From the NCBI RefSeq assembly GCF_009914755.1, contig NC_060948.1: DNA of 64,000 nt; one strand, written 5' to 3'. The notes under the pieces were generated by a model that was given only the letters and a program-made list of their open reading frames with translations, was not told the DNA's origin and searched no databases. The translations under genes were made by a program, and so were the position numbers. Of this stretch, positions 5,701-9,169 are shown one piece after another. This DNA is from the human T2T-CHM13v2.0 reference genome, Homo sapiens. How positions within the stretch are numbered: the stretch's first letter is position 1; each line of letters opens with the position of its first letter.

Positions 5701-7300
5701 TCCCACACCTACGTGGACCCAGGTTTCCTGAGGAGCTCCGCTGGACCCGCAGATCCCGCACTGGCCAAAGGGCTCCGGTCCCCAGCAGGCTCAACTGCGC
5801 ACAGGAGCTCGGGAGCCAGAGGCCCCGGCCCTGGGCTTGCAGAGCCCCACCAACAGGCACCGCAACCGCTGCTGCGGGTGCGGGAGCCTCTGGGTCGTCA
5901 AGGCAGCGCACAACAGCGTGCGCGCAGGCCGACAATGGCCAACCCTGGCGGCTGGCCTCTGGTGTGCCCAGGGCATAGGACAAGAGGCCCTTTGGAATGC
6001 TCCTTGGAGTACAGCATCCTCAGGGAGGAAGCATGGTACTCGGAGCCTCTATTTGCCTCGACCTGTGAGAGTGTGTGCCGGGGCTCTGGCCTCTACAGCA
6101 GATCAATTCCACCTCAGCACCGGCAGGCGACTTTCCTCCCACGTGCCCGCCCCGATCACTTCCCCCAGGACACCCCTGCCGCCCTAGCCCCAGCAACCAG
6201 AGAGAGTTCTCTGCATCTGCTGTATTACCTCCGTACCATCTACCTGGCCTGCCTAACGAAGAGAGATGTTTCCTGTGTTCATGACACATAGAGATGTTCA
6301 TGGCTTGCCACACTGAGGATGTCAGGGCACAGGGCTGCCATGCCCACAATTCCAAAGGCCACGCAGCCCGCGTGTGCCCGGATGCCTAGCTACCCGGCAC
6401 AAGCTCCAAGGGCTTCTCGGAGGAGGCTTGGGCAGGGAAGGCGGGGGGTGGGGGGGCTGGAGATGCAGGCCCGCCAGTGGCTGTGCCGCCCAGGGAGACG
6501 CCCACCGCCCTCCCATTGATTGGCCACGACGGGAGGAAGTCGGCCTGGGTGCGGCCCCCCGGCCCTTCGCGCGCAGTCCCTTAGGGGGCGCCTGGAAGCC
6601 CGGCGCATGCGCCCTGAGGGCTCGCTGACCTATCGGGTGCCAGAGAGGCTGCGGCAGGGTTTCTGTGGCGTGGGTCGGGCAGCACAGGCCTTGGTGTGTG
6701 CGAGTGCCAAGGAGGGCACCGCCTTCAGGATGGAGGCTGTGCAGGAGGGGGCGGCCGGGGTGGAGAGTGAGCAGGCGGCTTTGGGGGAGGAGGCGGTGCT
6801 GCTGTTGGATGACATAATGGCGGAGGTGGAGGTGGTGGCGGAGGAGGAGGGCCTCGTGGAGCGGCGGGAGGAGGCCCAGCGGGCACAGCAGGCTGTGCCT
6901 GGCCCTGGGCCCATGACCCCAGAGTCTGCACTGGAGGAGCTGCTGGCCGTTCAGGTGGAGCTGGAGCCGGTTAATGCCCAAGCCAGGAAGGCCTTTTCTC
7001 GGCAGCGGGAAAAGATGGAGCGGAGGCGCAAGCCCCAGCTAGACCGCAGAGGCGCCGTCATCCAGAGCGTCCCTGGCTTCTGGGCCAATGTTGTATCCTT
7101 CTCAGTGTTTCTTCGGCCTTTCTAGTGGAGAGGTGCTCTCGGGGAAGTGTAAGTGACCGATGGGCAGCTCGGCGTCGATGTGACTCTTTGGGGAACAAAG
7201 GGGAGTTGCCACGGACCAATGTGGCTGTGGAAAGCCGGAGCAGGCGTGGGTACTATTGTCCTGCATGCGGCAGAGAAACCCTTGGTGATGCCGAGCAGCA
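4780..7300. promoter_or_regulatory. CpG island covering TSPY exon 1, paralogue A exon 1 and the intervening candidate bidirectional promoter
   Basis: Visibly high GC and CpG density relative to AT-rich flanks; GC-box-like sequence (ccaccgccc ~6502-6510) upstream of the ATG. Edges approximate. Confidence 0.8.
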
Positions 7301-9169
7301 GACGTTTGGGGCATCTTTTTGAAGAGCAGAAGCGAGTTCAGAGCGGAAGAGGTTTTTCAGTGAATGAAGCTATTTTTAAGGGAGTGTGATTGCTGCCCCT
7401 TGCTAGTCCGATCTGGGACTGGGCGTCTTCGGCTATAAGCAGATTCTGCCACTCCTCAGACACCAGCAAGTCTCTGCAAATCGCGCCTCCCCATGTCAGT
7501 GCAGTCAGCCTCAGAATCATACACCCTCTGTGAACACAGGAGGCCTTAGTTTACGGGGACGGGGAGGCGAAAGGAGATCATACATGGAAGCAGATCTGAG
7601 AAATCCCCTACCCCAGCCTCTGGGTGCTCTTAGGCCTTCTTCCCTGTTGCTCCTCGCTTTCCCTTCCATCGTGTGTAAAGTCTCTTTGACCTAAATCAGA
7701 TTGCAAACCACCCCCAGATGTCAGCCCTGATCACTGACGAAGATGAAGACATGCTGAGCTACATGGTCAGCCTGGAGGTGAGGCCAGGAAGACTGGGGCT
7801 AGAGGGTTTAGCGGGGGAGGGTAAGGGAAATAATTCATTCCTGTAAGCAAGAGTGAGCACCTCACCCGAAAACCTATCTAAGCTTTCTCCACCTTGTCCT
7901 GACAGGTGGGAGAAGAGAAGCATCCTGTTCATCTCTGCAAGATCATGTTGTTCTTTCGGAGTAACCCCTACTTCCAGAATAAAGTGATTACCAAGGAATA
8001 TCTGGTGAACATCACAGGTGACAGGTGGCTCCCAGGATGGGTAGTGGGAGGAAGATGGTGGGTGGATCATTGCCAACGGGATCCAGCCCCCTTCCCACAA
8101 AAACTCCTGTCTCTGTAGAATACAGGGCTTCTCATTCCACTCCAATTGAGTGGTATCCGGATTATGAAGTGGAGGCCTATTGCCGCAGACACCACAACAG
8201 CAGCCTTAACTTCTTCAACTGGTTCTCTGACCACAACTTCGCAGGATCTAACAAGATTGCTGAGGTGAGTCCTCACTGGGAAACATGAGGAATGACCCCG
8301 TGTGTTCCCAGCTGCTTGGGTCACCTTTCTGAGCCCTGATGAGGCCTTTCCCGATTGAGTCCCCTGACAGATCCTATGTAAGGACCTGTGGCGCAATCCC
8401 CTGCAATACTACAAGAGGATGAAGCCACCTGAAGAGGGAACAGAGACGTCAGGTGAGCCGTTAGTTGGCACTGGAGCTGTTTGATGCCCAGTATAAGGGG
8501 GTTGACACACCTGCCTATTCAGGGAGCCTGGGTGCTCATTTCAGAAATGTAGAAATTGAGGCTCCTTTCGTACATGTAGAAATTCCTTGAGAGGAAGACA
8601 GAGAGTGACAGAATCCAGGACGTTCATGGCATTGGGCTGAAAAGGCACGTTAGAGACTGCACTGCAAAGCGGGTGATAGCTGTGGAGTCTTAAGCCCAGT
8701 GAAGAATCGTCCATTTCCAGAATCAATGAGAAGTAAAGCTGAAAATCATTCAGTTCAGTCTGTGGCACTTGATTCCACGGCTGTCAACCCCACCGGCAGT
8801 CATCCCACCAACCCCATGAGATTGGGCTCCCTGAATGTGCGTCCTGGTCATCCTTGCCCCAAACCACAAAGGACTGTTTAGATTGATGGATTTCCTTAAG
8901 CTGTTGCCCCATCAGACTTGTGTGTGCTTTTAGGGCCCAGTGCATCTTGTTAGCTGACTCCCCTCACAGACAATACTGGGAATGGGGCAGGGATTGCGCA
9001 GAACAGTTTGTAACACGTGGTAGGAGGAAGTTTAAGGGATCACAAATGGGGAAGGGATATCCTTTTCTCAGCGGGCCCCACAATTGAAACATTGCAAAGT
9101 ATGGCTCAGAGAAAATGCGTTTTAACATGAGTTTGTGTTTCTCTAGGGGACTCCCAGTTGTTGAGTTGA
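6607..9169 (+). CDS. TSPY: Testis-specific Y-encoded protein (NAP/SET family), copy 1, 308 aa; coding exons 6607-7092, 7700-7777, 7906-8017, 8119-8264, 8371-8452, 9147-9169
   Basis: Translates [18 protein letters not shown]...[15 protein letters not shown]...|[26 protein letters not shown]...|...[18 protein letters not shown]...|GDSQLLS*. All introns are GT-AG and the exons sum to 927 nt with no internal stop. The paralogue number (TSPY1/3/4/8/10 etc.) cannot be assigned from sequence alone. Confidence 0.96.

What the first reader, a model, noticed from the sequence alone, without database searches (positions are those of the whole stretch)
7093..7699. TSPY intron 1 carries a U12-type (minor spliceosome) signature
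Seen in sequence: the donor is /GTATCCTT (7093-7100), the U12 5' splice-site consensus. The 3' end reads TCTCTTTGAC-ctaaatcag/, a near match to the U12 branch site (TCCTTRAC) about 10 nt from the AG, with no pyrimidine tract in between. The same holds in copies 2 (27426-28032) and 3 (47694-48300). Established (recalled): the X-linked homologue TSPYL2 is a minor-intron gene. Inference: output of the whole TSPY array may be gated by a slow minor-spliceosome step, which could buffer copy-number differences.
Basis: partly seen in the sequence, partly recalled or inferred. Interest (0 to 1): 0.7.

Follow-up and report, generated by a model that had tools for sequence, protein, structure and literature searches.

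The report
Known minor-class intron in TSPY genes
The first intron of each copy of the human Y-chromosome gene TSPY carries the sequence signature of the rare minor class of introns, as a public catalogue has listed since 2019; it is likely cut out by the minor spliceosome, and the idea that this evens out differences in gene copy number is untested and unlikely.

Summary
Observation confirmed. In all three TSPY copies intron 1 (607 nt) reads TT|GTATCCTT...TCTTTGAC (branch A at -11)...CAG|AT; introns 2-5 lack this signature; chance is about 5e-6 per intron. It is already known: the 2019 Minor Intron Database tables list this intron, with the identical donor and branch strings, for TSPY1/2/3/4/8/10 and several pseudogenes, and a 2025 paper names the TSPY array as one of two minor-intron clusters in the human genome. 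TSPYL2 (human, mouse) and zebrafish tspy minor introns respond to minor-spliceosome loss, so the intron is likely inherited from the pre-X/Y ancestor and multiplied with the array. I found no direct test on TSPY itself. Copy-number buffering is poorly supported: a slow but unsaturated step scales output and does not flatten it (toy model); summed TSPY is 135 TPM in bulk testis, less than TSPYL2 alone; and copy number is uncoupled from expression in all nine Y gene families, eight of which have no listed minor intron. Side finding: the antisense lncRNA in each repeat is a decayed TSPY paralogue that keeps the homologous donor.

The parts
7093..7699 (+). TSPY intron 1, copy 1 (LOC124909084), 607 nt, phase 0, GT-AG U12-type signature
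   Evidence: annotation table
7093..7100 (+). U12-type 5' splice site GTATCCTT, preceded by exonic TT (not AG)
   Evidence: identical 12-mer scores 97.07 in MIDB
7683..7690 (+). predicted U12 branch site TCTTTGAC, branch A at 7689 (-11); one C of the consensus CC pair is T
   Evidence: identical 12-mer scores 75.25 in MIDB
7697..7701 (+). 3' splice site CAG|AT, the junction motif typical of U12 introns
   Evidence: motif from PMC10853781
7123..7125 (+). in-frame TAG ten codons into the intron: retention would end the protein after the dimerisation helix
   Evidence: domain position
7149..7154 (+). U2-like cryptic donor GTAAGT 56 nt inside the intron, downstream of the stop; use not shown
27426..28032 (+). 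TSPY9 intron 1, same signature, branch A at 28022
47694..48300 (+). LOC124909320 intron 1, same signature, branch A at 48290
6607..7092 (+). coding exon 1 of copy 1; its last third encodes the SET/NAP dimerisation helix
   Evidence: (the TSPY9 exon 1 translation, residues 111-166 of 168, matches SET residues 28-83, E 0.003, and NAP1-related protein 1, E 1.8e-5)

Best explanation
TSPY intron 1 carries a GT-AG minor-class (U12-type) signature, is already catalogued as a minor intron, and is likely removed by the minor spliceosome; it was likely inherited from the ancestor of TSPY and TSPYL2 and copied along with the 20.3-kb repeat. U11/U12 would read the donor and the branch site at -11, with ZRSR2 at the CAG|AT end; introns 2-5 are ordinary. 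Because the intron splits the SET/NAP domain in phase 0 and has a stop ten codons in, failure to splice would give a decayed or truncated message, so TSPY output should rise and fall with minor-spliceosome activity, like any other minor-intron gene. That is a gain factor applied to every copy alike, so it would scale the array's output and not buffer it against copy number. Shown: sequence, position, phase, stop, database class. Inferred: machinery, ancestry, decay, absence of buffering.
For: Signature and chance estimate. MIDB lists 13 TSPY-family introns on Y; the identical donor and branch 12-mers score 97.07 and 75.25 in 10 of the 13. Six-class scheme paper names TSPY as a cluster of minor-intron genes. 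Both extra marks of authentic U12 introns in PMC10853781 are met: no exonic AG before the donor, CA[G/C]|AU at the acceptor. TSPYL2 shares intronic GTATCCTTC and 8 of the last 9 branch-12-mer letters. TSPYL2 minor introns are mis-spliced in U4atac-mutant patient cells, mouse Tspyl2 in 1 of 6 U11-loss sets, zebrafish tspy in 2 of 2 rnpc3 sets. Toy model: elasticity of output to copy number at least 0.99 when the pool is unsaturated, and at least 0.95 when TSPY is 5% or less of the load.
Against: No inhibition, CLIP or lariat data for TSPY itself were found: human TSPY has no row among responsive introns (the data sets named there are not germ cells) and no TSPY-prefixed name was in the held CLIP supplement. 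The branch site has lost one of the two cytosines (+5/+6) linked to minor-spliceosome recruitment, and its score (75.25) is modest. Human TSPYL2 was scored non-responsive in 6 or 7 of 9 data sets. That the zebrafish and TSPYL2 introns lie at the same codon was not aligned here; it rests on shared gene structure and phase-compatible flanks.
Confidence: 0.88

Rival explanations
1. One reading: the minor-spliceosome step is limiting for the array, so more TSPY copies give more unspliced, degraded RNA and little extra mRNA (copy-number buffering), perhaps through local saturation at the tandem array.
For: TSPY copy number (20-64) does not correlate with testis expression in 149 men. U6atac can be limiting, and unspliced minor introns are degraded. 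The array is one of two minor-intron clusters in the genome. The toy model does buffer (elasticity 0.07-0.39) if TSPY is the whole load of a five-fold overloaded pool, which a local compartment could imitate.
Against: The uncoupling holds in all 9 of 9 Y families, while 13 of 14 chrY minor introns in MIDB are TSPY and the other is a TRAPPC2 pseudogene. Bulk-testis noise can hide a correlation. Summed TSPY is 135.5 TPM against 187 for TSPYL2, 68 for PTEN, 69 for SNRPE among about 700 minor-intron genes. With a share of 20% even an overloaded pool gives elasticity 0.80 or more. TSPY copy number has been linked to sperm count (as cited in PMC6772104).
Confidence: 0.07
2. The intron is dual or drifting: the U12 signals are weakened on the Y copy and part of the splicing goes through the major spliceosome using cryptic sites, giving some of the reported TSPY isoforms.
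For: Branch site one step weaker than TSPYL2's; pyrimidine-rich stretch and spare AGs at 7633 and 7680; U2-like GT sites at 7149 and in exon 1; 11 TSPY splice variants with alternative donors and acceptors are reported, with in-frame isoforms of 156-308 aa; cryptic sites around minor introns are common.
Against: The annotated donor is a near-perfect U12 site without exonic AG; dual-type sites are rare; one TSPY structural isoform dominates across great apes. I could not see the junction coordinates of the reported variants. This can coexist with the best explanation as a minor route.
Confidence: 0.15
3. The intron is an ordinary U2-type intron that only resembles the U12 consensus.
For: Some database minor introns with GTATCCTT proved to be U2-type (Table 1 of PMC10853781).
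Against: Those with the best U12-like donors had exonic AG and were poorly conserved; TSPY has TT, a correctly placed branch motif, CAG|AT and homologues that respond to inhibition. The donor has T at +5 where U2 donors favour G (established knowledge).
Confidence: 0.04

Closest known systems
TSPY intron 1 entries in the Minor Intron Database (Olthof et al. 2019, PMC6717393)
   Same: Same intron: 607 nt, identical donor and branch 12-mers, listed for TSPY1, 3, 4, 8, 10, 6P, 7P, 9P, 15P (TSPY2 at 601 nt).
   Different: The tables are on the older reference with 13 family members; the window's T2T copies have other names. No difference in the signals.
TSPY minor-intron gene cluster (PMC12814444, iScience 2025)
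   Same: Names the TSPY family on Y as one of two clusters of minor introns in 250-kb bins.
   Different: Both mentions of TSPY are descriptive; no buffering idea and no TSPY experiment in them.
TSPYL2 (TSPX) minor intron, human and mouse; zebrafish tspy minor intron
   Same: Same intronic donor; branch site differs by one core letter; same gene family and exon organisation.
   Different: Longer (1239 nt human, 1159 nt mouse), branch site has both cytosines, has experimental response data and a tissue-variable alternative 3' site. Single copy.
Rate-limiting or molecular-switch model of minor introns (PMC4615840, PMC3728624)
   Same: Predicts that host-gene output follows minor-spliceosome activity.
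   Different: It is a model of gain control by U6atac level, not of compensation for gene copy number.

Membership tests
U12-type (minor) spliceosomal intron, GT-AG subtype | 5' splice site RTATCCTT | tested here: met
   0 mismatches in 3 of 3 copies; introns 2-5 of TSPY9 have 5-6 mismatches
U12-type (minor) spliceosomal intron, GT-AG subtype | Branch site TCCTTRAY close to the 3' end | tested here: met
   TCTTTGAC, 1 mismatch, branch A at -11; MIDB score 75.25, above that paper's cut-off of 65
U12-type (minor) spliceosomal intron, GT-AG subtype | Both cytosines at +5/+6 of the branch 12-mer (mark of a strong site) | tested here: inconclusive
   C at +5, T at +6, C at +11; the feature is an enrichment described for minor-like introns, not a rule
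U12-type (minor) spliceosomal intron, GT-AG subtype | No pyrimidine tract between branch site and acceptor; acceptor is the first AG | tested here: met
U12-type (minor) spliceosomal intron, GT-AG subtype | No exonic AG before the donor; CA[G/C]|AU at the acceptor | tested here: met
   TT| and CAG|AT against PMC10853781
U12-type (minor) spliceosomal intron, GT-AG subtype | Weight-matrix classification as minor | tested here: met
   No matrix was run here; the window's 12-mers are letter-identical to those scored and classed as minor in MIDB. intronIC/IAOD was not checked: the held supplement is 2,790 characters with no TSPY
U12-type (minor) spliceosomal intron, GT-AG subtype | Conservation of the minor intron in homologues | tested here: inconclusive
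   Tables list minor introns in human and mouse TSPYL2 and zebrafish tspy; positional identity was not aligned here
U12-type (minor) spliceosomal intron, GT-AG subtype | Splicing depends on U11/U12/U4atac/U6atac | not testable with these tools
   Published for homologues only
Copy-number buffer by a saturable step | TSPY is a large share of the load on a saturated pool | tested here: inconclusive
   Bulk testis says small share; share in spermatogonia or at the locus is unknown
Copy-number buffer by a saturable step | Uncoupling of copy number and expression is specific to the minor-intron family | tested here: not met
   9 of 9 families uncoupled; only TSPY has a listed minor intron

The most novel reading that the evidence does not exclude
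The TSPY array, with one minor intron every 20 kb over dozens of copies, is a local sink for the scarce minor spliceosome in spermatogonia: it saturates U11/U12/U6atac at its own locus, caps TSPY output whatever the copy number, and lets Y copy number tune the splicing of other minor-intron genes such as TSPYL2.
Probability: 0.07. Interest if true: 0.7.

Novelty: already known. Interest (0 to 1): 0.2.

Why it matters
As it stands it confirms a catalogued fact that TSPY biologists seem to have overlooked: three searches pairing TSPY with minor-splicing terms gave only the 2025 clustering paper, its preprint and a paper on TSPYL2 as papers holding all the terms, in a library that lacks most subscription papers. 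The practical point is that TSPY, a spermatogonial and gonadoblastoma gene, should be sensitive to minor-spliceosome defects or drugs. If buffering or a local sink were true it would be a new way for a multicopy gene to compensate for dose and would explain why 20-64 copies are tolerated, but present evidence does not favour it.

Tried and rejected
Treating three copies as independent support: rejected, the introns differ at 0-1 of 607 positions. Branch motif as stand-alone evidence: rejected, at chance level in the window. Apparent excess of RTATCCTT in the window (9 against 4.3 expected, 3 of 100 shuffles): explained by triplication plus one homologous donor in the inverted paralogue. Selection on that paralogue's donor: not shown; 7 of 8 donor letters kept against about two-thirds identity in the neighbouring exon blocks (20 of 30, 96 of 146). 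Rfam scan of 1-27000: 0 hits. Pfam on single exons: nothing for exon 1, weak NAP for exon 2 (E 0.11). Retention data for human TSPY: no TSPY row in the retention or alternative-splicing tables of PMC6717393; the splicing analysis used uniquely mapped reads, so this says nothing for a multicopy gene. Junction coordinates of the reported TSPY exon 1 variants: four searches and two reviews gave none; the primary papers were not available. No TSPY in the held supplements of PMC7367187, PMC10853781 or PMC12814444 (its Data S1 was not seen). NAP1L and SET names: no rows in the responsive-intron table, which is not a full list of minor introns. Whether the antisense lncRNA is described as a TSPY relic: one search, listing only, no paper opened.

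Full report
Observation. The window holds three TSPY genes of the 20.3-kb Y array (units 99.3% identical). At the annotated end of exon 1 each reads TT|GTATCCTTC, and these are the only GTATCCTT on either strand. The intron is 607 nt and ends TCTCTTTGAC-CTAAATCAG|AT, with the predicted branch A at -11 (7689, 28022, 48290) and no other AG after it. Introns 2-5 have AG|GTGA-type donors, 5-6 mismatches from the U12 donor, and no branch motif better than 2 mismatches (scored on TSPY9). From the repeat unit's own composition the joint chance of donor plus placed branch motif is about 5e-6 per intron. The three copies differ at 0-1 of 607 positions and count as one observation. The branch motif alone is at chance level in the window.

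Class. PMC10853781 (passages) gives the consensus RUAUCCUU and UCCUURAY and two further marks of authentic GT-AG U12 introns: no exonic AG before the donor, and CA[G/C]|AU at the acceptor. TSPY meets both. One weakness: the branch 12-mer has C at +5 but T at +6, where PMC11347168 (passages) links two cytosines to minor-spliceosome recruitment; it keeps the C at +11 that goes with ZRSR2 binding. A pyrimidine-rich stretch lies upstream of the branch site with spare AGs at 7633 and 7680, and a U2-like GTAAGT lies at 7149, so cryptic U2 routes are possible; their use is not shown.

It is already catalogued. The supplementary tables of PMC6717393 (rows seen) list 13 TSPY-family minor introns on Y: TSPY1, 2, 3, 4, 8, 10 and seven pseudogenes, 10 of them 607 nt. 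The donor and branch 12-mers of 10 of the 13 are letter-identical to the window's and score 97.07 and 75.25. TSPYL2 is listed in human and mouse. PMC12814444 (passages) names TSPY and GBP as the two clusters of minor introns in the human genome. Table S6 of PMC11347168 (rows seen) shows two TSPYL2 minor-intron forms responding in 3 and 2 of 9 human data sets (U4atac-mutant patients), mouse Tspyl2 in 1 of 6, zebrafish tspy in 2 of 2; human TSPY has no row. TSPY and TSPX share an ancestor and exon organisation (PMC6498724, passages). So the intron most likely predates the sex chromosomes and was multiplied with the array (inference; position not aligned here).

How it likely works. The intron is phase 0 and falls right after the part of exon 1 that matches the SET/NAP dimerisation helix (SET residues 28-83), ahead of the rest of the domain. 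Retention brings a stop ten codons in (7123-7125); the cryptic donor at 7149 lies beyond that stop. Unspliced RNA would therefore be degraded in the nucleus or by nonsense-mediated decay (established knowledge; nuclear decay in PMC4615840, first third read). TSPY output should thus follow minor-spliceosome activity, as in the U6atac switch model (PMC3728624, passages). Whether this intron is slow is unknown: dependence varies more than 20-fold among minor introns, and 467 of 722 mouse minor introns showed no retention in any tissue.

Buffering. A step that is slow but not saturated removes a fixed fraction of each copy's RNA. In a toy model of a shared saturable pool with competing decay (30 parameter sets, copy number 20 to 64), the elasticity of output to copy number was at least 0.994 at low load for any share, at least 0.949 when TSPY was 5% or less of the load, at least 0.80 at 20%, 0.52-0.68 at 50% with five-fold overload, and 0.07-0.39 only when TSPY was the whole overloaded pool. 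The parameters are arbitrary; the point is the shape. In bulk testis the 13 TSPY rows sum to 135.5 TPM, against 187 for TSPYL2, 68 for PTEN and 69 for SNRPE (I saw only these rows, not the total over all minor-intron genes). TSPY is concentrated in spermatogonia and early spermatocytes, so its share there is higher by an unknown amount. For the idea: PMC6772104 (abstract, sections 10, 11, 17 and passages) found no correlation of copy number with expression for TSPY. Against it: the same held for all 9 of 9 Y families, and of 14 chrY minor introns in MIDB 13 are TSPY and one is TRAPPC2P7, so the pattern needs no minor intron. Local saturation at the array is not excluded; I put it at 0.07.

What is not in print, as far as searched. 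Searches for TSPY with U12-type/minor intron (30 of 217 listed; only two listed held all three terms), with minor spliceosome (3 listed of 4) and with U12+intron+spliceosome (3 of 3) gave the clustering paper, its preprint (listing only) and PMC4176328 (passages; about a TSPYL2 alternative 3' site). None proposes buffering or tests TSPY in the passages seen. The library lacks most subscription papers, and unseen supplements (Data S1 of PMC12814444, the intronIC/IAOD tables, bioRxiv files) may hold more. Reviews report 11 TSPY splice variants (PMC3954093, passages), while long reads show one dominant structure across apes (PMC11014635, passages); PMC10673640 (passages) and PMC8034651 (abstract) added nothing specific.

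Side finding. The antisense lncRNA in each unit (LOC124909210 and copies) is a decayed, inverted TSPY paralogue: all five coding exons align at about 56-73% identity between 5641 and 3401 on the minus strand. The last 30 nt of TSPY exon 1 have their best non-self match at 5294-5265 (20 of 30, background 7.4 +/- 2.4), and it is followed directly by ATATCCTT at 5264, the homologous donor with A at +1. The homologous branch site has lost its A; a perfect TCCTTGAT instead sits 9 nt before the exon 3-like acceptor at 3957. The annotated lncRNA starts at 5127, downstream of this donor, so use is not indicated and conservation is not above background. It shows the U12 donor is older than this duplication. 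A second, 5'-truncated relic lies at about 16030-15280.

Verdict. Real feature, correct class call, already known; the one new claim is weak. Interest 0.2.

Noticed in passing
window 5641-3401, minus strand (copies from about 25955 and 46240): The antisense lncRNA LOC124909210 (FAM197Y-like position) is a decayed inverted TSPY paralogue, head to head with TSPY about 950 bp away; its 146-nt and 110-nt exons match TSPY exons 4 and 3. I did not establish whether this is described.
   Followed up: partly
window 5264-5257 and 3971-3957, minus strand (also 25578/24284 and 45865/44572): The paralogue keeps the homologous U12 donor as ATATCCTT, has lost the homologous branch A, and has a perfect TCCTTGAT with A at -9 before the exon 3-like acceptor; together they could frame a 1308-nt AT-AG minor intron, but the annotated transcript starts downstream of the donor.
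   Followed up: partly
window about 16030-15280, minus strand: A second TSPY-like relic (end of exon 2 to exon 5), truncated at the 5' side, unannotated in the table.
   Followed up: partly
window 9057-9066 (also 29390, 49658), plus strand: A full AT-type U12 donor motif ATATCCTTTT inside TSPY intron 5, 90 nt before its acceptor, with a weak branch-like TTTTAAC near 9120; probably chance.
   Followed up: no
window 7040-7042: All three copies encode RRKPQLDRR here; copy 1 also has EVG for EVE at the start of exon 3 and YCRR for YRRR in exon 4. Copy-specific coding variants.
   Followed up: no
window 27145-27180: TSPY9 carries the 18-nt exon 1 duplication (EVVAEV repeated), absent in copies 1 and 3; an 18-bp in-frame exon 1 insertion is mentioned in PMC3954093.
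   Followed up: no
window 8360 and 8371 (and homologous sites): Two intron 4 acceptors 11 nt apart give the 294-aa and 308/314-aa C-termini (annotation table).
   Followed up: no
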